Positions 1,302 through 14,993 of a stretch of 32,000 nt of DNA are shown here, in pieces. Made by a program: the position numbers and the translations under genes. Positions within the stretch are counted from its first letter, which is position 1. Each line of letters starts with the position of its first letter. The notes below the pieces were generated by a model. That model made no database searches. It was not told where the DNA came from and was given only the letters and a program-made list of their open reading frames with translations. Origin of the DNA: Methanobrevibacter sp. GTDB lineage: Archaea; Methanobacteriota; Methanobacteria; Methanobacteriales; Methanobacteriaceae. The stretch is taken from positions 1-32,000 of the forward strand of contig NZ_JBNMGD010000012.1 of NCBI RefSeq assembly GCF_050872065.1, written 5' to 3'.

Positions 1302-1442
1302 TCATTCCTCATTTTTTTGATCCAACATCTGTATTTCATTGCTCATATCATATTAATACATATGTATTAACTCATATCTCACTATGAACTCTATTTAGCA
1401 TCACCTATCTATATTTCTTCATTGAAAATTATAATAATCATT

Positions 1443-1718
1443 ATGTATACTATAGCTATTTTTGATGTTAAATTCAAAACTAACAAAGAGAAAATTGAAA
1501 ACATTTTAAGACACTTTGGACTTAGAAAAATTCAGACAAATACATATATTGGAAAATTAAGTAATGCTAATTTAACTAGTTTTAAAAAAGAAATTAAATT
1601 GGCAATTCCTAAAAAAGATAGCCTATTAATTCTACCAATTTGTGATAACTGCTATTCAAAAAAAGATACATTTGGACGAAGAATAAATTTCAGTGAAAAT
1701 TTGTATAGGGTGTTTTAG
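1443..1718 (+). CDS. cas2: CRISPR-associated endoribonuclease Cas2
   Basis: The track ORF starts at TTG 1422. ATG 1443 gives MYTIAIFDV..., the canonical Cas2 first beta-strand with the conserved Asp. GLRKIQTNTYIGKL and DSLLILPI fit the Cas2 ferredoxin fold. About 91 aa. The TAG stop at 1716-1718 abuts the cas1 ATG at 1720. Confidence 0.8.
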   Translation: MYTIAIFDVKFKTNKEKIENILRHFGLRKIQTNTYIGKLSNANLTSFKKEIKLAIPKKDSLLILPICDNCYSKKDTFGRRINFSENLYRVF

Positions 1719-1719
1719 A

Positions 1720-2715
1720 ATGAATATTCTAATTGAAGGATTCAACAAATCAATTCACAAAAAAGATAATCAACTTGTCATAAAACAAAAAGATATTATC
1801 CTAGATTCCATTAAAGCAGACAAAATATCTAGCATAGTTATAATAGGAAAAGGATATATAACATTTGATGCCCTAACACTAATTGCAAATAATAACATCA
1901 AACTAATTTCAATTGATTATTTAGGTAAATTAAATTATTTAATAGAATCACCAGACTGGAGAAATGTGAAAATAAAAAAACAGCAGTATTTACTAAGTGA
2001 AAATAAAAAAGGTATCAAGATATCCCGTGAAATAATAAAATCAAAAATGATAAACCAAAAATCAACATTAACAACCTTAAACAAGCGCCGTAAAATTAAA
2101 GAAATAGATGAAATAAAAAATAATATTACTCTTCAAATTAATAGATTGAATTCCATTAAACTAACAAATAATCATGAAAAAGTAAAAATGCAAATAATGG
2201 GGTGTGAAGGAAAAGCATCAGCTCATTATTGGAGTGGGATAAAATTATTAATCCCCAAAGATATAGGATTTGAAAAAAGAACCAAAAAACCAACAGACTT
2301 ATTGAATTCCATGCTGAACTATGGATATGCTATTTTGGCAACTGAAATAACCAAATCAATATTAATAAATGGATTAGATCCATATTGCGGTTTCCTCCAT
2401 TTCGACATGGACCAAAGAACAAGTTTAACATATGATTTAATAGAAGATTTCAGACAACAACTCGTAGACAAAACAGTATTAAATCTTATCAATAGAAAAC
2501 AAGTTACAAATAATGATTTAGATAAAAGAAACAAAACTATAAAATTAGAAAAAAGAAAACTGATTATTTCAAAAATTCAAGAAAAACTACACTCAACAAT
2601 AAAATACAATGATGAAGAAGTAACTTACAGCGAAATAATTAATAAACAATCATCAAATTTAGTAAAAACTCTTTTAAATGATGAAAAATTTAAAGGATTT
2701 AATTTGCATTGGTGA
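1720..2715 (+). CDS. cas1: CRISPR-associated integrase Cas1
   Basis: Cas1 hallmarks are present: GCEGKASAHYW (catalytic Glu region), NSMLNYGYAIL, and GLDPYCGFLHFDMDQRTSLTYDLIEDFR (His plus two Asp). The likely start is ATG 1720 after a GGGTG RBS; the track ORF start at 1693 overlaps cas2. Confidence 0.92.
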   Translation: MNILIEGFNKSIHKKDNQLVIKQKDIILDSIKADKISSIVIIGKGYITFDALTLIANNNIKLISIDYLGKLNYLIESPDWRNVKIKKQQYLLSENKKGIKISREIIKSKMINQKSTLTTLNKRRKIKEIDEIKNNITLQINRLNSIKLTNNHEKVKMQIMGCEGKASAHYWSGIKLLIPKDIGFEKRTKKPTDLLNSMLNYGYAILATEITKSILINGLDPYCGFLHFDMDQRTSLTYDLIEDFRQQLVDKTVLNLINRKQVTNNDLDKRNKTIKLEKRKLIISKIQEKLHSTIKYNDEEVTYSEIINKQSSNLVKTLLNDEKFKGFNLHW

Positions 2716-2900
2716 AGACAACATTAATATTTTTAAGTTATGAATGTTTGTCCTAAAAAACAGATAAAAAAAGATAGTACTTAGATAATTTTTTGAGGAC
2801 AACAATGCCCTTTTTTAAGGAAAAAATCATGACCCTGAAAAAAAATTTAAAAAAGAAAAATAAATACCTTAAATAACTAAAAGAAGAAAAAATAATAAGA
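2716..2900 (+). promoter_or_regulatory. Putative CRISPR leader
   Basis: 185-bp non-coding stretch rich in A/T runs, lying between the cas1 stop and the first repeat copy. This is the classical leader position. No promoter was mapped. Confidence 0.5.
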
Positions 2901-2937
2901 GTTTAAAACGAATATTATCTTAAGTAATATTCAGAAC
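2901..2937 (+). repeat. CRISPR-type repeat R1 (perfect)
   Basis: 37 nt. Parses as GTTTAAAAC, 8-bp stem GAATATTA/TAATATTC around a 7-nt loop TCTTAAG, then AGAAC. First copy after the leader. Confidence 0.9.
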
Positions 2938-2979
2938 CAAAGAATGCGAAAGAAATAATATATTGTGGAGGTAGATAAT

Positions 2980-3234
2980 ATGACATACTTTTTAGATATG
3001 GATTTACATGAACCTTTTGGTATACCAGAAGTTGTTGAAACTACTGCAGATACTCGCACACGTCTAAGCAATAAGACAACTAAGGAATTAGTTGATTATT
3101 TGATTGGGGTGGACAAGAGTATTAAAGCAGGTTTTGAGAATGCGATTTATTTCCAGGAATGGAGTGTTGGATCTGATATTCTACGTAAGCGTGGTTATGA
3201 AATTCATGGACCATCTGATATTTATAATTTATAG
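2980..3234 (+). CDS. Hypothetical protein (84 aa) in the compositionally foreign block
   Basis: ATG 2980 is preceded by GGAGGT at a 7-nt spacing (track ORF starts at GTG 2965). G+C is much higher than the surroundings. No family recognised. Confidence 0.6.
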   Translation: MTYFLDMDLHEPFGIPEVVETTADTRTRLSNKTTKELVDYLIGVDKSIKAGFENAIYFQEWSVGSDILRKRGYEIHGPSDIYNL

Positions 3235-3247
3235 GAGGTAGATATAA

Positions 3248-3931
3248 GTGGTTTTATTAGAATTGTTAGGTGTAGCTTTAGGTGCTTCTTTAGTTAATGG
3301 CATGGCTAAGAAATCAAGTATGAAAGCAAATCCGCAATTAGATGTTAAGCAATTTGATGCTGATTGTGCTAGATATAGTGTGATCGGTCAAGACATCATG
3401 GATGTTGCTGCTCGTTGTGGTGTAAAACCGAATAAATACGGTGTGTTGCCAGAAGATGGGTACAAGCATTGCATGGGATATGTCACTCAGTATGTCAATC
3501 ATCCTGACGATGTTGAATTATTCAAACGTGATTGGTTATTGACTGTTGAACAACAACTCAAAGCTAAATCAAATCTGATGATTCGTAAGTATTGGGATGA
3601 TTATCAGCATCAGTATAATGGTTACTTGAACAACAAAGAGTATTGGACTTCTGGACCGGAGATTGTACTGGAGTTTAAGCACTGGCATGGTTTGCCAAAA
3701 GATCAGCATTTGAAACGCTTAAAAGATATTCAAACTAAAACATTTTGGGGTGAATTATGTTTGCAAGATCCAATCTTACGCAAGAATCCACGCATTAATG
3801 ATTCATACATTGAAGTATGGGTAATGAGAGGTGGTAAACATGACAAACAAGGCAATTGGGTAACACATAATGCTTGGGAAATGACATATGAGATTTGCTG
3901 TGGTGTGTGTGGCTATGACGCAATGTTATAG
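3248..3931 (+). CDS. Hypothetical protein (227 aa) in the compositionally foreign block
   Basis: GTG start preceded by AGGAGGT. Hydrophobic N-terminus (LLELLGVALGASLV) and Cys-rich C-terminus (CCGVCGYD). About 42% G+C by hand count of lines 3361-3480 and 3661-3720. No family recognised. Confidence 0.7.
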   Translation: MVLLELLGVALGASLVNGMAKKSSMKANPQLDVKQFDADCARYSVIGQDIMDVAARCGVKPNKYGVLPEDGYKHCMGYVTQYVNHPDDVELFKRDWLLTVEQQLKAKSNLMIRKYWDDYQHQYNGYLNNKEYWTSGPEIVLEFKHWHGLPKDQHLKRLKDIQTKTFWGELCLQDPILRKNPRINDSYIEVWVMRGGKHDKQGNWVTHNAWEMTYEICCGVCGYDAML

Positions 3932-3955
3932 TCACATTTTTAAAAAGGTGATATT

Positions 3956-4209
3956 ATGGTATTAATTTATAAAACAGAAGATAATGAATATTTTACTTTA
4001 GCAGAATTAGCACAAAAATTTCCAAAAGAGTGGGCTTACTGTTTGAGTTTAAAACGAATATTATCTTAAGTAATATTCAGAACAAAACTTTGGGAAACAG
4101 ATCCAATTGCCTATTATGAATGGAAACGTGAGTGTATTGAACTGAATATGTTACCTGATTTTTTTGGTACTCGTGATAATCCTATTCCTATTGATGAATC
4201 TAAATTATA
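3956..4209 (+). pseudogene. Small ORF split by repeat copy R2
   Basis: ATG 3956 (MVLIYKTEDNEYFTLAELAQKFPKEWAYCL) runs into R2 and stops at the TAA inside the repeat. The same reading frame reopens right after R2 (KLWETDPIAYYEWKRECIELNMLPDFFGTRDNPIPIDESKL) and ends at TAA 4207-4209. Confidence 0.45.
4047..4083 (+). repeat. CRISPR-type repeat R2 (perfect)
   Basis: Identical 37-mer, same orientation as R1. Confidence 0.9.
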
Positions 4210-4229
4210 AAACTTTTTTTTTAAATTTT

Positions 4230-4266
4230 GTTCTGAATATTACTTAAGATAATATTCGTTTTAAAC
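4230..4266 (-). repeat. CRISPR-type repeat R3 (perfect, inverted)
   Basis: Exact reverse complement of the 37-mer, 146 bp from R2. Confidence 0.9.
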
Positions 4267-4306
4267 GTAATAAAAATATGTATGTTAAGGATTGGAGTGA
4301 AAACAA

Positions 4307-5419
4307 ATGGTGGAGAAAAAACTCAAAAAGTCAGATGAAAGATTTGGTCTTGAATTTGAAGTTAAGAAAAATACAAAGAATGCAAACCGTATCGGATTCA
4401 GTAATACATTATTTGATGTTGGTGAAAAAGTCTATGTTCTGTCAGAAGAGCAGCACTATGATATTATAAAACAGATAGATCAGGTTGATGAATACAAAGA
4501 AAGAATAGCTGAACTTGAAACTGAAATAGCTAATGGATTAACAGACAATAATCTTGAAAATGAACTTCAGGAAAAAGATCAAATGATTAACACTCTGAAA
4601 GATAGGGTTGATTCACTTGGAAAAGAACTTGAATCAAATAAATCAGAAGTTAAAGTCCATGATAAAGATGAAATGGAAGAGTTAAAAGAACAGCTTAAAA
4701 GTTCACAGTCTCAGGAAGCTTATTGGAAAAATGCTTATGAAAATCTGATTGATACATCTGATGAATTATCTGCCAGAAATGAATCCCTCATTAAAGAAAA
4801 TGAAAAACTAAGAAACGATAACAATAACATTAACGAAACCAACAAATTGTTAAATGACAATATGATGGGATTAAACGATAACTATAAAGAAACAAAAGAC
4901 GAACTCCAGTCCAATTTTGAAGAAAAGGAAAATGAATTAAAAGAAACCATTGAAAAACAACAATCTCATATAGATGAATTAAATGATAAATTACAATCCT
5001 TATCCAGTCTTAAAGAATATATTCCACCAAAAGAACATTATGAAGCACTTGAGGAATTGAAAGATAAAATAAAAGAAGTTGAAACAGAATTAAACAAAGC
5101 CAATGCTGAAATCAATCTTAAACTATCCAATCAGAAATCTGAACTGGAAATAAAACACACTGAAGAAAAAGCACAAATGCTAATAGCTTACAATCAAGAG
5201 CTTAACAATAACAAATTAAAATATAATGAACTAGCAAAAGATTATAATCATTTACTTGGAGATGCTAATTCATTATCAAGAATAAACACTTTCTTTAATG
5301 GGAAACATAAACTAATTGTTAAAGATAAAGAACCTGTGGAACTTGAAGAGATAGAGGTGGAAAAAGAACCAACAGAAACAATAGAATATGTTCCCAAAGA
5401 CAAAGTAACATTAATATGA
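4307..5419 (+). CDS. Coiled-coil protein (370 aa), function unknown
   Basis: GGAGTGA RBS before the ATG. Long E/K/N/L-rich heptad-like stretches (ELETEIANG..., LKEQLKSSQ..., ELNDKLQSL...). The last 82 nt are duplicated at 6949-7030. Confidence 0.75.
   Translation: MVEKKLKKSDERFGLEFEVKKNTKNANRIGFSNTLFDVGEKVYVLSEEQHYDIIKQIDQVDEYKERIAELETEIANGLTDNNLENELQEKDQMINTLKDRVDSLGKELESNKSEVKVHDKDEMEELKEQLKSSQSQEAYWKNAYENLIDTSDELSARNESLIKENEKLRNDNNNINETNKLLNDNMMGLNDNYKETKDELQSNFEEKENELKETIEKQQSHIDELNDKLQSLSSLKEYIPPKEHYEALEELKDKIKEVETELNKANAEINLKLSNQKSELEIKHTEEKAQMLIAYNQELNNNKLKYNELAKDYNHLLGDANSLSRINTFFNGKHKLIVKDKEPVELEEIEVEKEPTETIEYVPKDKVTLI
5336..5417 (+). repeat. 82-bp direct repeat, left copy (3' end of the coiled-coil gene)
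   Basis: GTGGAACTTGAAGAGATAGAGGTGG...AACATTAATAT matches 6949-7030 at 80 of 82 positions. Confidence 0.9.
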
Positions 5420-5452
5420 ATATTTATTTATTAATATATGAAAGGTGAAACT

Positions 5453-6925
5453 ATGGATAAAGCATCAGAAAAAGTACCTAAAGTATTTATATCTTATTCT
5501 TGGACAAATGAAGAACATATAGAACAAGTTATAGAATTTGCTACATATTTGGTTAATAATCATGTTGATGTCATATTGGATGAATGGGATGCTCCTGAAG
5601 GAATAGACTTAAATTATTTCATGGAAGAAAATGTTAGATCAGAAGACACAGATTTTGTTCTCATAATTTCTGATAAAGAATATGCTCGTAAAGCTAACGA
5701 AAGAACGGGTGGTGTTGGTACTGAAACACAAATTATTAGCAAAAGAGTTTATGAAGATGTAAACCAAACAAAGTTTATCCCAATAGTTTGGCAAAATGAT
5801 GATGATGGAAAACCATGTCTACCAGATTATTTAGCATCTAGAAGATATTTTGATTTAACACCGAAGAATAGATATTCAAATTCTGAAAAAGTATTACGAA
5901 GATTACATGGTATTCCAGAAAATCCAAAACCAAAATTGGGTGAATTTCCTAAGAAATTGTTAGAAACTAATAAATATTATCCCTCGTTAAAAGAAATTAT
6001 CGAAACATTTGATGAAAAAATTGAAAAAAATCCTAAATCAATCAATTCAATTTCAAGACATTTCTTTAAAGATTTTTTACATAATTTTGATGAGTTTAAA
6101 ATAAAATTTCAGACACGAAATGCGTTAGAAATTGCTAATCAATTACACGATAATATTGAAGAGTTTATTCCATTAAGAAATTATTATATTGAATTTATTG
6201 AAAAAATTACTCAAGTTTATGAGTTTGCCCCAGTAGATGGCGATATAATTAAAGAATTATTTGAAAATATTTATTCTAACTATTTTATACCTAAACCTGG
6301 TGAATCTTATATAAGTGAAGATTTTATGAATTTTGACTTTATCGTAAGAGAACTTTTTTTATATACAATTACTATCTCAATTAAAAATGAATATTACCAA
6401 CTTACAAGTAATCTTTTAAACACTCCGTATTTTTTTAATGACCCATATAATTCTAATGATACTAAAACATTTTTAGATTTGGACAAAAGAAGATATGTTC
6501 GTACTGATGAATATTTAACATATTATTGTAAGGAACATAATCTTAATAAATTAACTGGGATGGGACATTTTTTGATTTCAAGAATTCATAAAAATTATGT
6601 AATTGAAGAATTAGTAAACTCAGACATCTTATGTTGTCATATTTCTATAATTAATTTGCAGGATTCCGATGGTTGGTTCCCATTTACATATATTTACAAA
6701 GAAACAAAGTACATGCATTTATATCAAAAATTAATTTCTGAAAGTTATTATAAGAAAGTTAAATGTATCTTTGACATTGAATCTAAAGAAGAATTGGTAA
6801 AGAAGATTAAATATTCTGATGAGTATTTTGGAAAAATGAGATATGGATTTAGAAGTGTTTTCATGAATTATGTTAAACCAATTAGTGAATATATTAATGC
6901 TGATGAAATTGCAAGTAGAAAATAG
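5453..6925 (+). CDS. TIR/SEFIR-like domain protein with a roughly 300-aa uncharacterised C-terminal domain
   Basis: The N-terminus KVFISYSWTNEEH...VDVILDEWD...FVLIISDKEYARKANERTGGVGTETQII...KFIPIVW matches the bacterial TIR-like/SEFIR pattern (FISYSW, DxWD, GGVGxE). ATG 5453 follows an AAAGGTGA RBS; the track start is 5438. Confidence 0.7.
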   Translation: MDKASEKVPKVFISYSWTNEEHIEQVIEFATYLVNNHVDVILDEWDAPEGIDLNYFMEENVRSEDTDFVLIISDKEYARKANERTGGVGTETQIISKRVYEDVNQTKFIPIVWQNDDDGKPCLPDYLASRRYFDLTPKNRYSNSEKVLRRLHGIPENPKPKLGEFPKKLLETNKYYPSLKEIIETFDEKIEKNPKSINSISRHFFKDFLHNFDEFKIKFQTRNALEIANQLHDNIEEFIPLRNYYIEFIEKITQVYEFAPVDGDIIKELFENIYSNYFIPKPGESYISEDFMNFDFIVRELFLYTITISIKNEYYQLTSNLLNTPYFFNDPYNSNDTKTFLDLDKRRYVRTDEYLTYYCKEHNLNKLTGMGHFLISRIHKNYVIEELVNSDILCCHISIINLQDSDGWFPFTYIYKETKYMHLYQKLISESYYKKVKCIFDIESKEELVKKIKYSDEYFGKMRYGFRSVFMNYVKPISEYINADEIASRK

Positions 6926-6948
6926 TTTGTATATACCAATATTTAAAA

Positions 6949-7030
6949 GTGGAACTTGAAGAGATAGATGTGGAAAAAGAACCAACAGAAACAATAGAAT
7001 ATGTTTCCAAAGACAAAGTAACATTAATAT
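6949..7030 (+). repeat. 82-bp direct repeat, right copy
   Basis: 80/82 identical to 5336-5417. It retains the coding frame of the coiled-coil C-terminus (VELEEIDVEKEPTETIEYVSKDKVTLI, then a stop) without an upstream gene body. Confidence 0.9.
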
Positions 7031-7033
7031 AAA

Positions 7034-7564
7034 CTATTCAATTGATTTGAGTATCTCATCCATCAATTCAGAAGTGTTAATGTTATTTTCCTCACCTATT
7101 TCATATTCAATAACAGATCCAACCAGCTTGTCAAGGGATCTATCTTGAATAGCTGAAATGATTCTTAACTTCATGTGAGTTTCAAGATCTACTTTAACAT
7201 TAATTCTTTTTCTGGGATTGCCTTTATTTAATAGCTTATCGTTAATATCATATGTAGAATTGTCTATATCTTTTCTTTTGAACCAGTCATCTTCATTAAC
7301 ATCTTTAAAAGCATCTTCAACATATTTGGCTATATCAATATCTGCAACTTTATCTTCAATAATGGATGTTGCAACTTTTTCTAAACTGGAATCTTTTGAA
7401 GCTGCAATAACTTTTAACTTCTTGTGAGTGTTTGGGAATAGCTTAACAGTTATTTGTTTTCTTTGTGTTTCAATATCGTTAATGTAGTCTTCTTTAACTT
7501 CTTTTATGGCGTTTTCTCTTTGAACTTGTTTTTCAATAAGCTCTTCAATTTTATTGTCTGTCAT
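7034..7564 (-). CDS. Tandem ribbon-helix-helix (CopG/Arc-like) DNA-binding protein
   Basis: Two internal RHH-like units: KQITVKLFPNTHKKLKVIAASKDSSLEKVATSIIEDKV and KRINVKVDLETHMKLRIISAIQDRSLDKLVGSVIEYEI. AGGAGGA RBS upstream. Confidence 0.7.
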   Translation of the reverse strand: MTDNKIEELIEKQVQRENAIKEVKEDYINDIETQRKQITVKLFPNTHKKLKVIAASKDSSLEKVATSIIEDKVADIDIAKYVEDAFKDVNEDDWFKRKDIDNSTYDINDKLLNKGNPRKRINVKVDLETHMKLRIISAIQDRSLDKLVGSVIEYEIGEENNINTSELMDEILKSIE

Positions 7565-7584
7565 GTTATTTTCCTCCTGTATGT

Positions 7585-7619
7585 TTAATAATGTAATTAC
7601 ATTAATAATGTATTTACAT
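7585..7619. promoter_or_regulatory. Tandem palindromic operator-like sites upstream of the RHH gene
   Basis: TTAATAATGTAATTACAT is followed directly by TAATAATGTATTTACAT. The cores are the perfect 12-bp palindrome ATGTAATTACAT (7591-7602) and the near-palindrome ATGTATTTACAT (7608-7619). The sites lie 20-55 bp upstream of the RHH start codon. Confidence 0.5.
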
Positions 7620-7678
7620 AATATATTTTTGTTGATATATAAATATTATGTTATTTTGAAAAATAAGCTGCCCATCTC

Positions 7679-7725
7679 TGATGGACAGGTTGCGACGAGT
7701 GAAACGAGTCGCAATAGGTATATAC
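7679..7725. other. Two adjacent GC-rich hairpins in an AT-rich intergenic region
   Basis: CTGCCCATC-tct-GATGGACAG forms a 9-bp stem with one mismatch. TTGCGAC-gagtgaaacga-GTCGCAA forms a 7-bp stem. Function unknown. Confidence 0.3.
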
Positions 7726-7755
7726 TAAAAAGTTAGTTAATGGTTGGGTTAAAGT

Positions 7756-7773
7756 GACATTAACATTAACGAT
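7756..7773 (+). repeat. Solo left end of the MITE-like element
   Basis: GACATTAACATTAACGAT is identical to the left terminus of copy B (11983-12000). No matching right end follows. Confidence 0.5.
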
Positions 7774-7959
7774 TGATATTTCCTTACTGGAATTATATTT
7801 TCTTACTAGACAGACATCATACTGGCAAATATGATATATTTTTTTTAAAAGTAACTTTATCAGGTTCTTTGAATGATTTTTTACAACTGGTTTTATTAGG
7901 GATTCAAGAGTTTAATTTGTTGATGATTGTTATTAAGTTATTAATTTAATGGAATGGCT

Positions 7960-8072
7960 TTAACATTAACGGCAAGGGTTCTGGAATTGGATTTGGTTTT
8001 CACACTTGGATATATATGCACGAGTTTCAGGAATTAAGTTTTGAAATGGTAATGTTGGATGTTAATGTTAAT
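7960..8072 (+). repeat. MITE-like element, copy A (about 113 bp)
   Basis: Perfect 11-bp terminal inverted repeats: TTAACATTAAC (7960-7970) and GTTAATGTTAA (8061-8071). About 85% identical to copy B by eye. Non-coding. Confidence 0.7.
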
Positions 8073-8128
8073 AGTTTATATCATAACATTTACAAAACTA
8101 GATTTAACAAAATAATGTTTGGATACAT

Positions 8129-9577
8129 ATGTCAAATTATCATTTTTTTAATAGAAAAGAGCTAGAACAAATTCTTGATGAATGCCTTAATAAAACATTA
8201 GGTGAAGTAGATAAGAACAATGTTTTTGAAATAACAAAGACACATCCTAAATATACTGGAATAGCTGGACATGTAATTGAACAATCTGTATTGGGATATC
8301 CTGCAGATACTAGACAAGAACCTGACTTGGATGTTGATGGTGTTAAAACAGAATTAAAAACAACTGGTATTAAATACATAAGAAATAACACTCAATTTGT
8401 TGCTAAAGAACCTATGAGTATTACGGCCGTGTCTCCTCACACTATCGTTAATGAAACATTTGATGATTCTAATTTTTGGCATAAACTAGCTCACTTATTA
8501 TTTGTTTATTATTTATATGACTCACCAACCACTGTTAAAGCTGCAGGATATGCAGACTTTCCAATTAAAGGTTATCAATTTTATGAATTCAATTCAGAGG
8601 ATACAGAAATATTAAAAAATGACTGGACAATAGTTAGAAACTTTATTTCCTGCTTACAGGATAACTATGAGAATTATGAGGATGAATATCCAAGAATATC
8701 TCATGAATTAAGACCTAAGTTGATGTATATTGATACTGCTCCTAAATGGCCACATAATCCAAGATTCAGATTAAAAAGAAGTGTGGTGTCATCTATCATT
8801 CAAGATCACTTTGGTGAATCTTTAGAGCAATTACCTAAAACATATACTTCCTATTCTGAGATTTATGAAACCTGTCATGAGTTGACAGATCAATATAAAA
8901 ATAAACCAATCCATGAACTTGTTGATTTATTGGATATTAAGGTTAATAGAATTAATAAAGCAATTGGAGAACAGATTATTGTTAAAATGTTTGGTGGAAC
9001 ATCAAGGAAAATGCAAAAGATAAAACTATTCAATAGATTAGGAATTATTGGTAAAACATTAACATTAACAGAGAGAGGACTTCGAAAGGAAGATATGAAA
9101 CTGTTTACAATTGATTTTGATGAATTTACTGAAGATATTGAATTTGAAGATTCACAAACCTATGATTACTTTAACAACAATAGATTTTTATCTATAATAT
9201 TCCAAAGGCCTGAAGCTGATGCTGAAATGAAAGATAATATCTTTTTAGGATTTAAAATGCTTACTTTTGAAAGTAGCTTTATTGAAAATGATGTTAAGAA
9301 TACTTGGGAGAGAATTAAGGATTTAATAGTTAATGATAATCTGGAGGATGTTGTTGTCTTAGATAGCCAAGGACAACCTCGTAAAAATAGAAGCGGTAAT
9401 ATAATGAGTGCTCCTAACTTTCCTAAGAGTTCTGAAGGAAATGTATTCGTTAGAGGAACAAGTTCCACATCTGATGAGAAACCATTGACATTGAATGGAA
9501 TAAAAATGTATAGACAACAAATGTGGGTTAAAGGATTGTATATAGTTAATAAGCTCAATGAAGAGGATTATATTTAA
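8129..9577 (+). CDS. Type II restriction endonuclease, Sau3AI/MutH-like (predicted GATC specificity)
   Basis: 482 aa. The N-terminal MutH-like catalytic region is KYTGIAGHVIEQSVLG...EPDLDVDGVKTELKT (D...ELK). Size and the two-domain layout resemble Sau3AI. The gene is paired with a C5-methyltransferase. Confidence 0.7.
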   Translation: MSNYHFFNRKELEQILDECLNKTLGEVDKNNVFEITKTHPKYTGIAGHVIEQSVLGYPADTRQEPDLDVDGVKTELKTTGIKYIRNNTQFVAKEPMSITAVSPHTIVNETFDDSNFWHKLAHLLFVYYLYDSPTTVKAAGYADFPIKGYQFYEFNSEDTEILKNDWTIVRNFISCLQDNYENYEDEYPRISHELRPKLMYIDTAPKWPHNPRFRLKRSVVSSIIQDHFGESLEQLPKTYTSYSEIYETCHELTDQYKNKPIHELVDLLDIKVNRINKAIGEQIIVKMFGGTSRKMQKIKLFNRLGIIGKTLTLTERGLRKEDMKLFTIDFDEFTEDIEFEDSQTYDYFNNNRFLSIIFQRPEADAEMKDNIFLGFKMLTFESSFIENDVKNTWERIKDLIVNDNLEDVVVLDSQGQPRKNRSGNIMSAPNFPKSSEGNVFVRGTSSTSDEKPLTLNGIKMYRQQMWVKGLYIVNKLNEEDYI

Positions 9578-10833
9578 TCTTCTTTTTCAATTACTCCTTC
9601 TAAATATTTTCCTAGCTTTTGAACAATACCTACTACTAAAGCATTACCCATCATAAAATATCTTCTTCTTTCTGTCATAGCTTTAGATTCTATATTAGTC
9701 CAATTATCCGGAAACATTTGTATTCTTTCAGCTTCAACTGGTGTTAATGTTCTATATATGTCTTTTTCTTCATTAACTCCTATGATATGTGAACTTCTGT
9801 TTGTTGTGCTTTCACTTGTGAGCATTGTTCTTGCAGGTGCATCTAAATGATCTGGAAATGCAATAGCTCCTTCTGAATAGCAATAGGTTTCACCATTTGG
9901 TTTTTTCCTTTCAAGTTTTTTAGAACCTTTCAAGTATTTCCATTTCTCAAGTTTTTCACCAGATATAATGTATTTATCATCAAAATTAGTTTCAAGGATG
10001 TCTCCTAATGTTGTAAACTCTCCAGAATAATTTGGTTCAACTTTATATGTATAAACATTACCATTAATCATACATCCTGCATTATAGAAATGAAAATCAA
10101 ACTCATCACTAACGGAAACAATATCTTCATAGTCTTCTTTAGAAATACTTGATTTGCCTTTTTCTAATTGAGTATCTTTAATTGGGAAATTTGTAGCGAA
10201 TATTCCGTTAGTATACACAAGTTGTTCTGCTGAATATTTTATCATGTCTTTAAAGTAATTGGTAGATTTATGATAAGCATAAATGAATACTCTTCTTCTT
10301 TTTTGAGGAAATCCATATTCTGCTGCATTAATTACTCTCCATTCAACTGCATATCCATTATCAAGAAATGACCTTAACATTATTCCAAAGTCACGTCCTC
10401 TTTGAGTTGATGGTGAACGTAATAATCTATCTACATTTTCAAGTAAAACAAATGGAGGTTGTTTGGTTTCAAGGACTTCGGCTATTTCCCACCAGAGAAC
10501 TCCTTTCTTACCTTCAATACCTTTTTCATTGGATAAAGACCTTGCCACTGAATAATCCTGACATGGAAAACCTCCTACAAGTAATGTGTGATTTGGAATG
10601 GTAGTTTTGTCAACTTTGCCAATATCTTCACATACATGATTTTCAGATGCTCCGAATCTTTCAGTATAGCAATCAAATGCTGCCTGTGTTTTAGTGGATG
10701 GTTCCCATTGGTTAGCCCAGATAAAATCCCAATTATCTTTTTCAGTAACTTCATTGCCGTTATATGTTACTTCATTGAATCCACAGCGGAATCCACCAAC
10801 TCCAGCAAATAATTCTACAACTGTCTTATCCAT
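9574..10833 (-). CDS. DNA (cytosine-5)-methyltransferase
   Basis: Motif I ELFAGVGGF, motif IV GGFPCQDYS, motif VI LLENV, motif VIII QKRRRVFI and motif X GNALVV are present. The likely start is MDKTVVELF at 10833 after a GGAGA RBS; the track extends to 10893. The 3' ends overlap the endonuclease gene by 4 nt. Confidence 0.9.
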   Translation of the reverse strand: MDKTVVELFAGVGGFRCGFNEVTYNGNEVTEKDNWDFIWANQWEPSTKTQAAFDCYTERFGASENHVCEDIGKVDKTTIPNHTLLVGGFPCQDYSVARSLSNEKGIEGKKGVLWWEIAEVLETKQPPFVLLENVDRLLRSPSTQRGRDFGIMLRSFLDNGYAVEWRVINAAEYGFPQKRRRVFIYAYHKSTNYFKDMIKYSAEQLVYTNGIFATNFPIKDTQLEKGKSSISKEDYEDIVSVSDEFDFHFYNAGCMINGNVYTYKVEPNYSGEFTTLGDILETNFDDKYIISGEKLEKWKYLKGSKKLERKKPNGETYCYSEGAIAFPDHLDAPARTMLTSESTTNRSSHIIGVNEEKDIYRTLTPVEAERIQMFPDNWTNIESKAMTERRRYFMMGNALVVGIVQKLGKYLEGVIEKED

Positions 10834-10983
10834 AGTAATTTCTCCAATAGTTAATATATTTATAACAAACATATTAATAATTAACGAGATCAATTAAAAA
10901 GTATTAATTAACTTAAAATTAAACTGATATATAAGAATAATTAAATTAAGAATTCAATTCGTTATAGAACATTATAGGAGCAG

Positions 10984-11229
10984 ATGTTTATGGAAAATTT
11001 AGAAAATGTACATGCTATAATTAATACAATAGCTGAAGACCCAAGAGTGGATGTTTCTAAAATAGATGATTATACATTTAATGTTGTTATTAATGGAGAA
11101 CTAATGGATTCATTTGAAAAACTTGGAGAAATCCAAAAGAAGATAAATGATGGTTGTTCTGATGAATATACTCTTAAAACTATTTATGGTGACGGACAAG
11201 ATGCAAAATTAATTTTAGAAAAGAATTAA
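10984..11229 (+). CDS. Hypothetical small acidic protein (81 aa)
   Basis: AGGAG RBS before the ATG. No family recognised. Confidence 0.55.
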   Translation: MFMENLENVHAIINTIAEDPRVDVSKIDDYTFNVVINGELMDSFEKLGEIQKKINDGCSDEYTLKTIYGDGQDAKLILEKN

Positions 11230-11245
11230 ATTCATAGGTCTTACA

Positions 11246-11527
11246 ATGAGTGCTGACATATTTGAAAAGAATAATATAAGATTACCTACTATTGAAGAAG
11301 TTGAGGAAATAGATAATCCTCCAGTTGTAGCACATTTTACCAATGGACTTTGGGATTGGTATGTAATAGCTGGAGAAAAACTTGATGATGATTATCGTTT
11401 ATTAGGATTAGTTAATGGTGATTATAAAGAGATGGGAACATTTACTTTAAAACAATTAGAAAATGTCTCAGCTAAATTAATATCTATTGAAAACATAAGT
11501 CTTCAAGAAGTAAAGTCCAGAATATAA
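11246..11527 (+). CDS. DUF2958-like protein
   Basis: LPTIEEVEEIDNPPVVAHFTNGLWDWYVIAGEKLDDDYRLLGLVNGDYKEMGTFTLKQLE fits the DUF2958 pattern from memory (LP.lys.E...dp.v..kFf.p...WtWY..E....d..fGlV.G.e.ElGyfsL.EL). That family is common on plasmids and conjugative elements. Confidence 0.55.
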   Translation: MSADIFEKNNIRLPTIEEVEEIDNPPVVAHFTNGLWDWYVIAGEKLDDDYRLLGLVNGDYKEMGTFTLKQLENVSAKLISIENISLQEVKSRI

Positions 11528-11528
11528 T

Positions 11529-11906
11529 TTATTTAACATAATCCGTATATTTCATTAATAATCCAATAACTGTAGGTAATGCAGACTCATAACTTGCAAA
11601 TTCTATGTTTTCTTTTTTACCAATATCTATTTCAATTCCTGTAATCCCTTGAATGGTTTCCGTGTTTATACTTTTAATATCTTTGAACTTGATTACTTTT
11701 CTTGGTTTTTGAATTATTAATCTGTCATCTTCGAGAAATAAAGTTGTAGTTATAACTTCTTGTTCTTCTTTAGCTCCGCCTGCAAGAATTCCTGTTGTTA
11801 AAAATAGTGCAGCACTTGCTAAAGCGGTATTGGATTTTTTAGTAATGACCATTTTAATTTCAGCTTTACCTGCTCTTAAAAGTCTTTCAACTTCTGAATC
11901 AACCAT
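11529..11906 (-). CDS. Hypothetical protein (125 aa)
   Basis: AGGTGA RBS, then ATG 11906 (MVDSEVERLL...). The track start at 11915 is the GTG inside the RBS. One central hydrophobic segment. No family recognised. Confidence 0.55.
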   Translation of the reverse strand: MVDSEVERLLRAGKAEIKMVITKKSNTALASAALFLTTGILAGGAKEEQEVITTTLFLEDDRLIIQKPRKVIKFKDIKSINTETIQGITGIEIDIGKKENIEFASYESALPTVIGLLMKYTDYVK

Positions 11907-11982
11907 GATATTCACCTATTAAAATATTGTTTTTATTATTAATTAAATTGATAGATTTATTTTAAGTTGAATTTAATTCATT

Positions 11983-12097
11983 GACATTAACATTAACGAT
12001 AGGGGTTCTATAATTGGATTTGGATTTCGCACTTGGATATAATGTGCAGGGGTTTCGGGAATTAAGTTTTGAATTGGTGATGGTGGATGTTAATGTC
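11983..12097 (+). repeat. MITE-like element, copy B (about 115 bp)
   Basis: Perfect 11-bp terminal inverted repeats: GACATTAACAT (11983-11993) and ATGTTAATGTC (12087-12097). The internal sequence aligns with copy A. Confidence 0.7.
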
Positions 12098-12486
12098 AGC
12101 AGCCAGAATTTTATTGATGTATATATTTATTTTTTTTATTATGTTTGTTCTATATTTTTTTAAATATTTTTTATAATTTGTAATTTAATTTAATATATAA
12201 ATAGTTCGTATCTTTTCTTTTTTTACGTATATTATAAACAGAAATATACGTTTAATTTATATATAAAATAAGAGAATTTTGAAGTTTTTAGTTAAAAATC
12301 CAAAAAAGAACAAGGACATATACATATGTGTATTACAAGTAGTACATTTATCTAAATTAATAAAAAAGTGTATATGTTGCTTTATTATTCATCATATGTT
12401 ACAATTTTGAAAATATTTTTTGGGTGTTAAATGCTTTACAGAAGTTTCTAATATCTTGAATCAATATCAATAGTTATTAATTTAAA

Positions 12487-12605
12487 ACATTAACATTAAC
12501 ATTAACGGAAGGAGTAATGGTTTTGGATTTGGGTTTTAAACTGGGATATATATGAAAGCATTTCTAAAAAGAGTTTTCAAATAGCTATTGGTGAGTATTA
12601 ATGTA
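12487..12605 (+). repeat. MITE-like element, copy C (diverged)
   Basis: Starts ACATTAACATTAACATTAACGG and ends TATTAATGTA. Internal blocks (TTGGATTTGG, GGGATATATATG, GAGTTTTCAA) are colinear with copies A and B, at roughly 65-70% identity by eye. Confidence 0.5.
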
Positions 12606-12754
12606 TCTGTTATTAATCCGCCCCAGTTTACAAATACTTATTCTAAAATATTAGTTCTTGAGCAATTCATTGTCTTTTAGATATTCAATGAATTTCAAAA
12701 TCATTTTTGTTTCACGTTATCCAATAGCAGTTCTGAAAAGTCAGTTACATAATA

Positions 12755-13297
12755 TCATAAAGAAAAATTATATCGTAATGAACGTCCTGCATGTGCTTTA
12801 GATTCTAATTCATCAATTTTCCTATGAATAATTTTTCTTGCATCATCAACACAACAATTTTCATATAAATAATCATTTTCTTCAGGAGTTACTAATTTAT
12901 AATATTCTGAACTATATCCGTATTTTCGGTATATTTCATTTTCTATTGTTTGTAATATTCTTAATTTAAGTTCTAAGAAATAGGTTGTATTTTTTTTATC
13001 ATTTAAATAAATAAAGATTGGAATTGCATTATCACAAACTTCTGTAATTTTAAATAAATTATTGGTTCTTTCGTATATATTACATAATCTTTTATATGTT
13101 GTTGGACTACCAACTTTTTCAGAAACATTTATTTCATATAAGTTTATAGCTCCTTCTAAATCATTCATTTCTTCTAATAGTTTAGCTTTTTTATTTCTTT
13201 CCAATTGTTTTTTTGTTGGTCTAAAATCTGCAAAAACATTAAGAGTATATCTTTTTCTAGCTTTATCATATCTATCTTTTTTATTTGATGTTTCCAT
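12755..13297 (-). CDS. Hypothetical protein (180 aa), possibly TPR-like helical
   Basis: Complete ORF. On the minus strand its ATG lies 2 nt downstream of repeat R4. The AINLYE...YKRLCNIYE pattern is weakly TPR-like. Confidence 0.6.
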   Translation of the reverse strand: METSNKKDRYDKARKRYTLNVFADFRPTKKQLERNKKAKLLEEMNDLEGAINLYEINVSEKVGSPTTYKRLCNIYERTNNLFKITEVCDNAIPIFIYLNDKKNTTYFLELKLRILQTIENEIYRKYGYSSEYYKLVTPEENDYLYENCCVDDARKIIHRKIDELESKAHAGRSLRYNFSL

Positions 13298-13299
13298 AA

Positions 13300-13336
13300 G
13301 TTCTGAATATTACTTAAGATAATATTCGTTTTAAAC
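13300..13336 (-). repeat. CRISPR-type repeat R4 (perfect, inverted)
   Basis: Exact reverse complement of the 37-mer, same orientation as R3. Confidence 0.9.
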
Positions 13337-13391
13337 GTATGAGTACGAAAAATTATTATTCAAACATATAAATCCAGTTCCTGAAATTGAT

Positions 13392-13718
13392 ATGGACTCA
13401 TTCTTTTTAGATAATCAAAATATTAGAGGAGCACGTACAATCGCAGGAACTATATTGGAGAAAAAACAAATAAAAATACAGGGAAAAATTATTCTAAATT
13501 GGGAAGAATTGCATGCTGTAAAAACATATAGTGGACATTTCCATAAACAAATTAATGGATATGTCCGAAAAAATAGTGATTGGGAGAAATATTTCGAGAA
13601 CCAATTAAATAAAGAATTCACAGGAGATGAGACTATAAAAGAAATTGAAGATTTGATTGAAGACCCTGATTCAGCAATGAAGAAAACACCAAGTTTAACT
13701 CAGAGTATGACCAAATGA
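13392..13718 (+). pseudogene. N-terminal fragment of an ADP-ribosyltransferase (C3/exoenzyme-like) domain gene
   Basis: AVKTYSGHFHKQINGYVRKN matches the Y-[TS]-G-x-x-Y-x-x-IN-x-x-LR region of ART toxins, and IEDPDSAMKKTPSLTQSMT matches the following helix. The ORF stops just where the catalytic Arg strand would begin. Confidence 0.35.
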
Positions 13719-13758
13719 AATAAAGTTAAGGTTTTTATTGCTTCAGTCGTTTCATTGG

Positions 13759-13793
13759 GTTTAAATCAAATTATCTTAAGTAATATCCAGAAC
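13759..13793 (+). repeat. CRISPR-type repeat R5 (degenerate, 35 nt)
   Basis: GTTTAAATCAAATTATCTTAAGTAATATCCAGAAC. The right 24 nt differ from consensus at 1 position. The left part has a 2-nt deletion plus substitutions. Confidence 0.7.
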
Positions 13794-13815
13794 TCACTTG
13801 AAAATTAATTTAACA

Positions 13816-14835: not shown

Positions 14836-14956
14836 TCTTTCATCCTATTAATATTTTTTCTATATTTATAAAAAAAAGTTCAATGAAATACTGACTAATT
14901 TTAAATATTTCACCATTCCATATTTAAAGTTTATGTAAAATTACCCCTTCACCCTA

Positions 14957-14993
14957 GTTTAAAACGAATATTACCTCAAGTAATATTTAAAAC
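14957..14993 (+). repeat. CRISPR-type repeat R6 (degenerate, 33/37)
   Basis: GTTTAAAACGAATATTACCTCAAGTAATATTTAAAAC. There are four substitutions: two in the loop, one turning a stem G-C pair into G-T, and one in the 3' tail. Confidence 0.75.

What the first reader, a model, noticed from the sequence alone, without database searches (positions are those of the whole stretch)
4307..7619. Candidate defence module: coiled-coil protein, TIR/SEFIR-like protein with an unknown C-terminal domain, and a convergent tandem-RHH regulator
The TIR-like N-terminal domain (FISYSW...DEWD...GGVGTE) belongs to a type found widely in prokaryotic abortive-infection and NADase defence proteins. Here it is fused to a roughly 300-aa helical domain I cannot assign. 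A 370-aa SMC-like coiled-coil protein precedes it on the same strand with an 18-33 nt gap, depending on whether the TIR gene starts at ATG 5438 or 5453. An autoregulated-looking tandem-RHH protein follows on the opposite strand. The whole set lies inside a repeat-bounded island next to an R-M system. The architecture does not match the TIR systems I know (Thoeris ThsA/ThsB, CBASS/Pycsar effectors, SPARTA, TIR-STING).
Basis: partly seen in the sequence, partly recalled or inferred. Interest (0 to 1): 0.7.

Follow-up and report, generated by a model that had tools for sequence, protein, structure and literature searches.

The report
Known SEFIR defence gene in viral slot
The "TIR-like protein with an unknown C-terminal domain" is a full-length member of the already described single-gene bacterial SEFIR (bSEFIR) anti-virus system, and it sits as an inserted cargo gene between two conserved genes of a Methanobrevibacter virus, not as part of a new three-gene system.

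Summary
All three ORFs exist at the stated coordinates. The 495-aa protein (5438/5453-6925) matches the PADLOC bSEFIR model over its whole length (E 4.9e-89, aa 6-494). bSEFIR is a published single-gene NAD+-depleting defence system.

The coiled-coil gene (4307-5419) and the convergent tandem-RHH gene (7034-7564) are a conserved, tightly abutting pair. They occur in ~34-kb Methanobrevibacter caudoviruses such as vir323 and in related MAG contigs. In 11 distinct relatives nothing lies between them. In six contigs a 248-aa unknown ORF does. Only in this window does bSEFIR.

The insert is bracketed by an 85-nt direct repeat (82/85 identical), a duplicated 3' end of the coiled-coil gene. The closest bSEFIR homologues (74-79%) lie in unrelated defence islands without either flanking gene. 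The three-gene "module" is therefore refuted. What remains is a new archaeal, virus-derived member of a known system, sitting in a variable cargo slot.

The "repeats" that bound the island are the 37-nt CRISPR repeat of the adjacent cas2-cas1 locus, present in both orientations. One copy interrupts a small gene. Whether that context is real or an assembly artefact could not be settled.

The parts
4307..5419 (+). Coiled-coil protein gene (370 aa). It is a conserved gene of vir323-type Methanobrevibacter caudoviruses and the homologue of vir323_00029. Function unknown. It forms the left flank of the cargo slot.
   Evidence: 116 homologues, all of Methanobrevibacter virus or MAG type. 70% identity to vir323. 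Only weak coiled-coil matches, with no ATPase head.
5336..5420 (+). Direct repeat copy 1: the functional 3' end of the coiled-coil gene, ending in TGA.
   Evidence: 82/85 positions identical to copy 2.
5438..6925 (+). bSEFIR gene. Probable true start is ATG 5453, giving 490 aa (= WP_432644898.1). It is the inserted cargo.
   Evidence: PADLOC bSEFIR E 4.9e-89 over aa 6-494. PHROG 11745 E 2.7e-102. 2126 homologues of about 480 aa. Nucleotide homology to other bSEFIR loci is confined to 5429-6927.
5477..5875 (+). N-terminal SEFIR (TIR-superfamily) domain, aa 14-146. Family-invariant residues include F17, S19, Y20, D48, D57, G92, G94 and E96.
   Evidence: Pfam SEFIR 8.5e-17 and TIR_2 3.9e-14. PDB 5y8e E 1e-27. 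Foldseek TM 0.82-0.85 to 5y8e/5y8f. Invariance in 60/60 sequences.
5951..6922 (+). C-terminal all-helical domain (aa ~172-495), characteristic of the bSEFIR family. Presumed sensor or regulatory domain. No solved structural relative.
   Evidence: AF2 model pLDDT 89.8. No PDB or BFVD fold match for this part. Covered by the PADLOC and PHROG family models. Invariant E305, D396, W413, T417, Y420, S434 and K442.
6949..7033 (+). Direct repeat copy 2: a non-functional duplicate of the coiled-coil gene's 3' end. It abuts the RHH gene stop exactly as the real 3' end does in viruses with an empty slot.
7034..7564 (-). Single-chain tandem ribbon-helix-helix protein (176 aa). It is a conserved viral gene, the homologue of vir323_00028, and the right flank of the cargo slot. 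RHH unit 1 is aa 35-74 (7343-7462). Unit 2 is aa 119-156 (7097-7210).
   Evidence: Internal duplication KQITVKLFPNTHKKLKVIA / KRINVKVDxETHKKLRVIS. AF2 topology beta-alpha-alpha x2. Foldseek top hits are chains of the F-plasmid relaxosome entries 9f0x-9f12 (which I take to be TraY, from my own knowledge), then AvtR, VirC2 and single-chain Arc. Sub-threshold RHH/Arc family hits to both halves.
7565..7810 (.). Conserved region upstream of the RHH gene. Viral homology ends at 7810.
   Evidence: 90% identity to L005/L037/L040.
4230..4266 (-). Exact copy of the 37-nt CRISPR repeat, forming the left boundary of the island. Viral homology starts at the very next base (4267).
13300..13336 (-). Exact copy of the 37-nt CRISPR repeat, forming the right boundary of the island.
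8129..10893 (.). Sau3AI-family endonuclease (+, 8129-9577) and C5 cytosine methyltransferase (-, 9574-10893). This R-M cassette is also carried by a vir323-like contig (L025) at a different position.
   Evidence: 83% nucleotide identity between window 7941-11485 and L025 3875-7410.
7936..8068 (+). Intergenic element of about 130 nt, with further copies at 11963-12095 and 12472-12604. It has a TATA-like core flanked by inverted ACATTAACATTAACG motifs and brackets the R-M cassette.

Best explanation
The 495/490-aa protein is a stand-alone bSEFIR abortive-infection protein.

By homology with the characterised Bacillus system, the proposed mechanism is as follows. The C-terminal helical domain keeps the protein inactive until it senses infection. 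The N-terminal SEFIR domains then associate, using the invariant Asp48. This residue probably corresponds to the D40 that is essential in Bacillus. The associated domains hydrolyse NAD+; the invariant Glu96 of the GGVGTE loop is the candidate catalytic residue. NAD+ depletion then stops virus replication.

The gene is not part of an operon-level system with its neighbours. It was inserted, ORF plus ribosome-binding site only, into a variable cargo slot between two conserved convergent genes of a vir323-type Methanobrevibacter caudovirus. Those genes are the coiled-coil gene and the tandem-RHH regulator gene. The insertion left an 85-nt duplication of the coiled-coil gene's 3' end on either side. 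That is the pattern expected from a single-crossover (Campbell-type) integration of a circular intermediate, or from unequal recombination.

The surrounding 9-kb island is a mosaic of viral accessory modules: this slot, an R-M cassette and small ORFs. It carries no structural genes, so it is a provirus remnant or virus-derived defence island. bSEFIR is likely transcribed by read-through from the coiled-coil gene or from the short AT-rich spacer. It would protect the carrier cell, and the element, against other viruses.

Shown here: family membership, conservation of the key residues, the insertion anatomy and the absence of conserved partners.

Inferred: NADase activity, the sensing role of the C-terminal domain, the recombination mechanism and how the gene is expressed.
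For: Family membership:
- PADLOC bSEFIR 298 bits over aa 6-494.
- Pfam SEFIR scores above TIR_2, which is the criterion Millman et al. used.
- PDB 5y8e E 1e-27.
- Foldseek TM 0.82-0.85 to the SEFIR structures, followed by Act1, SPARTA, SARM1 and AbTir TIR domains.
- D48, D57 and E96 are invariant in 60/60 homologues.

Known function:
- SEFIR is a single-gene defence against phi29, and the D40A mutant is dead.

Insertion anatomy:
- The coiled-coil and RHH genes abut (12-68 nt apart) in vir323 and 10 other distinct contigs.
- A 248-aa ORF occupies the same slot in six contigs.
- The 85-nt repeats flank the insert, and copy 2 is contiguous with RHH as in the empty sites.
- An independent Logan contig seen in 7 samples (L007) reproduces window 5363-6999 at 100%, covering both junctions.

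No conserved partners:
- bSEFIR homologues at 74-79% identity lie between DUF4062/PDC-S60, FRG/PDC-S15 and OLD/AriA-like genes, with no coiled-coil or RHH gene nearby.
- Full-length bSEFIR already occurs in phage records (Clostridium phage D-1873, Klebsiella phage ST15-OXA48phi14.1) and as a PHROG family.
Against: - No experiment exists on this protein or on any archaeal bSEFIR.
- Identity to the Firmicutes homologues retrieved here (Brevibacillus, Paenibacillus) is only about 35%.
- The catalytic role of E96 is inferred from invariance and its position relative to TIR NADases. It was not checked by a residue-level structural superposition, and the loop at aa 90-95 is modelled at low confidence.
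- The gene lies 18-33 nt downstream of the coiled-coil gene on the same strand, so regulatory coupling cannot be excluded.
- The census of slots is small: about 18 distinct contigs.
- The recombination mechanism is conjecture. No recombinase was identified.
- The chromosomal context, with CRISPR repeats at the island edges, might be partly an assembly artefact.
Confidence: 0.75

Rival explanations
1. One reading: a new three-gene TIR system. The coiled-coil protein acts as sensor or scaffold, the SEFIR protein as effector and the tandem-RHH protein as the system's autoregulator.
For: Same-strand adjacency with an 18-33 nt gap. The coiled-coil protein gives weak hits to the coiled-coil regions of LmuB and JetC.
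Against: The coiled-coil and RHH genes are paired without any SEFIR gene in 11 distinct viral or MAG contexts (vir323 plus 10 contigs), and with a different cargo in six contigs. The 12 loci holding close bSEFIR homologues lack both genes. bSEFIR works alone in Bacillus. The 85-nt duplication marks the SEFIR gene as a secondary insertion. The LmuB/JetC hits score 10-18 bits and cover coiled-coil regions only.
Confidence: 0.04
2. bSEFIR is autonomous in mechanism but has been placed under viral control. It would be co-transcribed with the coiled-coil gene and indirectly governed by the RHH repressor. It would then act mainly as a superinfection-exclusion function of the virus rather than as a host defence.
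For: There is no recognisable separate promoter in the 18-33 nt spacer. Only the ORF and its RBS were imported. Hypervariable regions carrying defence and counter-defence genes are described for Methanobrevibacter virus MSTV1. ACATTAAC-type repeats, which are plausible RHH operators, are enriched in intergenic regions and occur in the empty slot of vir323.
Against: There are no expression data. The island here lacks all structural genes, so there may be no active virus left to benefit. RHH binding to these motifs is untested.
Confidence: 0.15
3. The genomic context, though not the CC-bSEFIR-RHH unit itself, is a metagenome-assembly chimera. The assembler would have left the host CRISPR array at spacers identical to co-occurring virus DNA and re-entered at others. 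The 'island next to cas genes' would then not exist as such in any cell.
For: The source is a MAG contig. Viral homology begins exactly at the repeat edge at 4267. The repeats occur in both orientations with no normal-sized spacers anywhere. Relatives of the virus lack the repeat.
Against: One repeat copy (4047-4083) sits inside what homologues show to be one continuous ~71-aa gene. A chimera would need two spacers derived from exactly abutting protospacers. A partial copy (13770-13793) and a degenerate copy (14957-14993) also flank gene-bearing segments, and these are too short or too divergent to cause k-mer joins.
Confidence: 0.3

Closest known systems
bSEFIR / SEFIR single-gene anti-phage system (Millman et al. 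2022; PADLOC PDLC03957; DefenseFinder 'SEFIR')
   Same: Same two-domain architecture over the full length: an N-terminal SEFIR domain and a C-terminal helical domain of about 300 aa. Same length class (~480-495 aa). The Asp and the GGVGTE Glu are invariant. No conserved partner gene. Close relatives lie in defence islands.
   Different: The host is an archaeon (Methanobrevibacter) and the gene sits in virus-derived DNA. Identity to the Firmicutes homologues retrieved here is only about 35%. Activity is untested. Millman et al. had already noted archaeal (Methanosarcina) homologues.
Defence-gene hotspots of temperate phages and satellites (P2/P4-type hotspots, Rousset et al. 2022, known to me only from the reference list seen) and the hypervariable defence/counter-defence region of Methanobrevibacter virus MSTV1 (PMC11375127)
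   Same: A fixed position between conserved viral genes carries alternative cargo genes in different relatives: empty, a 248-aa ORF, or bSEFIR.
   Different: The virus family differs (vir323-type, not MSTV1-type). The slot lies between a coiled-coil gene and a convergent tandem-RHH gene. Cargo is bracketed by a duplicated 60-85 nt 3' end of the left flanking gene. Only two cargo types have been seen so far.
Single-chain tandem RHH DNA-binding proteins (F-plasmid TraY, lipothrixvirus AvtR, VirC2)
   Same: Two beta-alpha-alpha RHH units in one polypeptide. These proteins are the best fold matches.
   Different: No significant sequence similarity. There is an N-terminal helix of about 30 aa and a 40-aa linker. 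The model has only moderate confidence (pLDDT 67). The DNA target is unknown.
TIR-based multi-gene systems (Thoeris ThsA/ThsB, CBASS/Pycsar TIR effectors, SPARTA TIR-APAZ/Ago, TIR-STING)
   Same: TIR-superfamily fold. NAD+ is the likely substrate.
   Different: No ThsA, cyclase, Argonaute or STING partner lies nearby. The SEFIR profile scores higher than the TIR profile. The C-terminal domain is unrelated to APAZ or STING.

Membership tests
bSEFIR (single-gene SEFIR defence system) | N-terminal SEFIR domain whose SEFIR match is stronger than its TIR match (the selection rule of Millman et al.) | tested here: met
   Pfam SEFIR 62.2 bits versus TIR_2 53.6 bits, aa 14-146. The rule is quoted. 5y8e E 1e-27. 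Foldseek TM 0.82-0.85.
bSEFIR (single-gene SEFIR defence system) | Full-length match to the family model, including the C-terminal domain | tested here: met
   PADLOC PDLC03957 E 4.9e-89, aa 6-494 on profile positions 35-385 of 412. PHROG 11745 covers positions 3-480 of 482. Homologues at 97-99% coverage.
bSEFIR (single-gene SEFIR defence system) | Conserved Asp needed for SEFIR-SEFIR interaction (D40 in the Bacillus sp. NIO-1130 protein) | tested here: inconclusive
   D48 is invariant in 60/60 sequences and lies at residue 37-48 in homologues. It aligns with the Asp of VILDRW in 5y8e. The NIO-1130 sequence itself was not available, so the equivalence is inferred.
bSEFIR (single-gene SEFIR defence system) | Acts alone, with no conserved partner gene | tested here: met
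   Three different neighbourhoods for the 74-79% homologues, and a fourth in this window.
bSEFIR (single-gene SEFIR defence system) | Protects against virus infection by NAD+ depletion | not testable with these tools
   Known only for the Bacillus homologue.
SMC-like / Lamassu LmuB / Wadjet JetC (for the coiled-coil protein) | Split ABC-type ATPase head (Walker A/B) flanking the coiled coil | tested here: not met
   Only the coiled-coil regions of the JetC, LmuB, Rad50 and SMC models match, at 10-23 bits against cut-offs of 300-1000. No ATPase Pfam domain. No GxxxxGK[ST] motif in the sequence (read by eye).
Thoeris / CBASS / SPARTA / TIR-STING | Partner gene (ThsA, CD-NTase, short pAgo) or a fused STING/APAZ domain | tested here: not met
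   No such PADLOC or Pfam hit in 2900-13300. The C-terminal domain has no fold match to APAZ or STING.
Tandem ribbon-helix-helix regulators | Two beta-alpha-alpha units in one chain | tested here: met
   Internal sequence repeat. AF2 secondary structure E35-42/H44-57/H61-74 and E119-126/H127-140/H144-156. Foldseek probability 1.0 to chains of the F-plasmid relaxosome entries, which I take to be TraY. Pfam RHH families stay below their cut-offs at 14-20 bits.
Viral accessory-gene (defence) hotspot | Conserved flanking genes with alternative cargo at the same position in related genomes | tested here: met
   Empty slot in vir323 plus 10 contigs, a 248-aa ORF in 6 contigs, and bSEFIR here.

The most novel reading that the evidence does not exclude
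The region 2901-14993 is real. On this reading it is a CRISPR array whose interior has been replaced by kilobase-scale pieces of virus DNA, including the bSEFIR slot and an R-M cassette. The pieces are joined precisely at CRISPR repeats in both orientations, and one repeat is inserted inside a viral gene.

This would mean one of two things. Methanobrevibacter viruses might carry solitary CRISPR repeats (Racr-like) that recombine with the host array. Alternatively, the adaptation machinery might capture whole gene cassettes.

The 85-nt duplication and the ACATTAAC repeats in the slot would, in the same spirit, mark a dedicated cassette-integration mechanism in these viruses.
Probability: 0.15. 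Interest if true: 0.75.

Novelty: new member of a known kind. Interest (0 to 1): 0.3.

Why it matters
It removes a false lead, because the 'unassignable' TIR architecture is bSEFIR. It also adds three modest points:
- A bSEFIR gene is carried in archaeal virus-derived DNA of a gut/rumen methanogen.
- vir323-type viruses have a definable cargo slot in which defence genes are swapped.
- The slot's anatomy, with a duplicated gene end, hints at how such cargo is acquired.

For methanogen biology and methane-mitigation phage work, knowing which defence genes travel on Methanobrevibacter viruses is useful. If the CRISPR-repeat-bounded context proves real, it would bear on how viral solitary repeats and CRISPR arrays recombine.

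Tried and rejected
- Exact-sequence look-ups of the two window proteins with the longest ORF starts found nothing. The annotated bSEFIR start is 5453.
- NCBIfam has no model for bSEFIR.
- A PDB sequence-profile search with the RHH alignment found nothing. Only fold comparison recognised the tandem RHH.
- Foldseek against PDB and BFVD gave no credible match for the bSEFIR C-terminal domain.
- Pfam, PHROG and PADLOC gave nothing for the 248-aa alternative cargo, or for ORFs 2965, 3248, 10984, 11529 and 12755.
- The sigma-70 promoter and terminator scan is uninformative in an archaeon.
- Rfam found no family in the window, including none for the CRISPR repeat.
- The CRISPR repeat is absent from IMG/VR and from all fetched viral loci.
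- Segment 2938-4229 has no match in phage records or IMG/VR.
- IMG/VR holds only one relative of the slot, so the census could not be widened.
- A fuzzy-regex script timed out.
- Rejected: the idea that the coiled-coil protein is SMC/Lamassu-like, and the idea that the DUF4062 protein upstream of other bSEFIR genes is the same as the coiled-coil protein (no tblastn hit).

Full report
**Observation.** The window is about 28% G+C and carries cas2 (1422-1718) and cas1 (1693-2715) just left of the finding. The three ORFs of the finding are present as described: 4307-5419 (+, 370 aa), 5438-6925 (+, 495 aa) and 7034-7564 (-, 176 aa). A Sau3AI-family endonuclease (8129-9577) and a C5 methyltransferase (9574-10893) follow. 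RefSeq names the source Methanobrevibacter sp., a 35,225-nt MAG contig. The SEFIR protein is WP_432644898.1 (490 aa, start at ATG 5453, which has AAGGTGA 5 nt upstream).

**The TIR-like protein is bSEFIR.** Pfam places aa 14-146 in SEFIR (62.2 bits) and TIR_2 (53.6 bits). The PADLOC model bSEFIR (PDLC03957) matches aa 6-494 at E 4.9e-89. PHROG 11745 matches aa 10-487 at E 2.7e-102.

A search of 5.8 billion proteins found 2126 homologues, nearly all 475-500 aa with 97-99% coverage. In an alignment of 60 of them, F17, S19, Y20, D48, D57, G92, G94 and E96 are invariant. So are E305, D396, W413, T417, Y420, S434 and K442 in the C-terminal domain.

The N-terminal domain matches the Bacillus cereus SEFIR crystal structure 5y8e (E 1e-27). 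An AlphaFold model (pLDDT 89.8) superposes on 5y8e/5y8f with TM 0.82-0.85, then on Act1 SEFIR and on SPARTA, MyD88, SARM1 and AbTir TIR domains. The C-terminal domain has no credible match in PDB or BFVD.

The literature held here describes SEFIR as a single-gene system from Bacillus sp. NIO-1130. It protects against phi29, is inactivated by D40A and has archaeal homologues. [quoted passage not shown] D48 lies at residue 37-48 in homologues, so it is probably the D40 equivalent. I infer, but have not shown, that E96 is the catalytic Glu.

**The neighbours are a conserved viral gene pair.** The coiled-coil protein has 116 homologues, including vir323_00029 of Caudoviricetes sp. vir323. That virus has a circular 34,179-bp genome with Methanobacteriales as host. 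In vir323 the coiled-coil gene is followed within about 30 nt by a convergent 180-aa gene, the homologue of the window's 176-aa protein (67% identity).

The same abutting pair, with 12-68 nt between the two genes, occurs on ten further distinct contigs. These include four of 34-37 kb from Methanobrevibacter MAGs. Six contigs whose flanking genes are 92-95% identical to the window carry a 248-aa ORF of unknown function between the two genes. Only the window carries bSEFIR there.

Conversely, the closest bSEFIR homologues (79%, 74%, 74%) lie in three other neighbourhoods. Their neighbours are a DUF4062/PDC-S60 protein, an FRG/PDC-S15 protein and an OLD/AriA-like ATPase. Neither the coiled-coil gene nor the RHH gene is present in any of the 12 loci.

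**Anatomy of the insertion.** An 85-nt direct repeat (82/85 identical) brackets the cargo. Copy 1 (5336-5420) is the working 3' end of the coiled-coil gene. Copy 2 (6949-7033) is a duplicate that abuts the RHH stop codon exactly as the genuine 3' end does in empty sites.

Nucleotide similarity to other bSEFIR loci (80-83%) is confined to 5429-6927, that is, the ORF and its ribosome-binding site. The contigs with the 248-aa cargo have the same layout, but their second copy is more decayed. A Logan contig found in seven runs (L007) is 100% identical to window 5363-6999 and so independently contains both junctions. It begins and ends inside the repeats, as expected for a k-mer assembler.

A single crossover with a circular intermediate that carried the 85-nt segment, or an unequal exchange, would give this pattern. 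That is inference, and no recombinase was found.

**The other two proteins.** The coiled-coil protein has no ATPase head. Its only family matches are 10-23-bit alignments to coiled-coil regions of the Rad50, SMC, JetC and LmuB models. 'SMC-like' is therefore not supported, and its function in the virus is unknown.

The 176-aa protein is a true single-chain tandem RHH. It has an internal repeat, KQITVKLFPNTHKKLKVIA... / KRINVKVDxETHKKLRVIS.... Its predicted topology is beta-alpha-alpha twice. Its best fold matches are chains of the F-plasmid relaxosome entries 9f0x-9f12 (which I take to be TraY, from my own knowledge), then AvtR, VirC2 and single-chain Arc. Sequence-family hits to RHH/Arc models cover both halves but stay below thresholds.

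**The island.**
- Homology to the viruses covers 4267-5420 and 6949-7810.
- The block 7941-11485 (R-M plus two small ORFs) is 83% identical to a block in the vir323-like contig L025, where it sits upstream of the coiled-coil gene instead.
- That block is flanked in both genomes by an element of about 130 nt. The element has a TATA-like core (CGATATATATGCA) between inverted ACATTAACATTAACG motifs.
- The motif is strongly over-represented: 17 versus 1.6 expected in the window, and 23 versus 1.3 in vir323. One copy lies in the empty CC/RHH slot of vir323.
- No structural virus genes are in the window.

The island is therefore a mosaic of viral accessory modules, not a complete provirus.

**The 'repeats' bounding the island.** They are exact copies of a 37-nt hairpin-forming repeat, GTTTAAAACGAATATTATCTTAAGTAATATTCAGAAC. 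The repeat first appears 185 nt downstream of cas1. Copies lie at 2901 (+), 4047 (+), 4230 (-) and 13300 (-). A partial copy lies at 13770 and a degenerate copy at 14957. No normal-sized spacer exists between any two of them.

Viral homology begins at the base after the repeat, at 4267. That is what a spacer-mediated misassembly would also produce. However, the copy at 4047-4083 interrupts a single reading frame. An exhaustive HMMER search found 70-78-aa proteins that align across the junction without a gap. The short partial and degenerate copies also could not cause k-mer joins.

Virus-borne solitary CRISPR repeats are known as RNA anti-CRISPRs and have been proposed to mediate integration into arrays. 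I could not decide between real structure and artefact.

**Verdict.** It is wrong in its main claim of a novel multi-gene architecture. What is here is a new, archaeal, virus-associated member of the known bSEFIR system, sitting in a variable cargo slot of vir323-type viruses.

Noticed in passing
window 2901-2937, 4047-4083, 4230-4266, 13300-13336, 13770-13793, 14957-14993: Copies of the 37-nt CRISPR repeat of the adjacent cas2-cas1 locus, in both orientations. They are separated not by spacers but by 146 nt to 9 kb of gene-bearing, partly virus-derived DNA. This could be real (recombination at solitary repeats, or mis-integration) or a MAG misassembly.
   Followed up: partly
window 3956-4210: A ~71-aa gene (homologues are 70-78 aa) is interrupted in frame by 39 nt, made up of A + the CRISPR repeat + A. 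Homologues align across the junction without a gap (AYCL|KLW versus AYVK|KLW).
   Followed up: yes
window 7936-8068, 11963-12095, 12472-12604; also several copies in L022, L023, L025 and vir323 (L041): A conserved intergenic element of about 130 nt, with a TATA-like core flanked by inverted ACATTAACATTAACG motifs. It brackets the R-M cassette in two genomes. The hexamer-repeat motif is 10-18-fold over-represented and could be an operator for the tandem-RHH protein and/or a recombination hotspot.
   Followed up: partly
L027 10001-10798, L029 10001-10645 (host contigs of 111-201 kb); proteins P0229-P0236: Half-size HsdS proteins with different target-recognition domains all end in the last ~72 residues of the viral coiled-coil protein (89-93% identical). 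They are followed by the same 247/248-aa ORF that fills the slot in L005. This is a chromosomal hsdS::viral-fragment junction at a KLK(F/Y)NE microhomology.
   Followed up: partly
window 7941-11485 versus L025 3875-7410: The Sau3AI-like endonuclease, the C5 methyltransferase and two small ORFs form a mobile block. A vir323-like 34.7-kb contig carries the same block at a different genome position.
   Followed up: partly
L013 728-3330, L015 207-2815 (and L014, L016-L019): The closest bSEFIR homologues are immediately preceded (20-26 nt) by a 366-368-aa DUF4062 protein, which is the PADLOC PDC-S60 family and the recently named NIR NADase domain. This pairing of two putative NADases was not examined further.
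   Followed up: no
L005 5205-5951 (also L006, L030, L037, L040, L027, L029): A 248-aa ORF is the alternative cargo of the same slot. It has no hit in Pfam, PHROG or PADLOC and is a candidate unknown defence or anti-defence gene.
   Followed up: partly
window 3248-3931: A 227-aa ORF in a locally G+C-richer segment (35%). It belongs to a cluster of 544 sequences at >=90% identity, on contigs of up to 144 kb, with no family assignment.
   Followed up: no
window 1422-2715: cas2 precedes and overlaps cas1, an unusual order. No other cas genes lie in the window; a chloride-channel-like membrane protein lies upstream.
   Followed up: no
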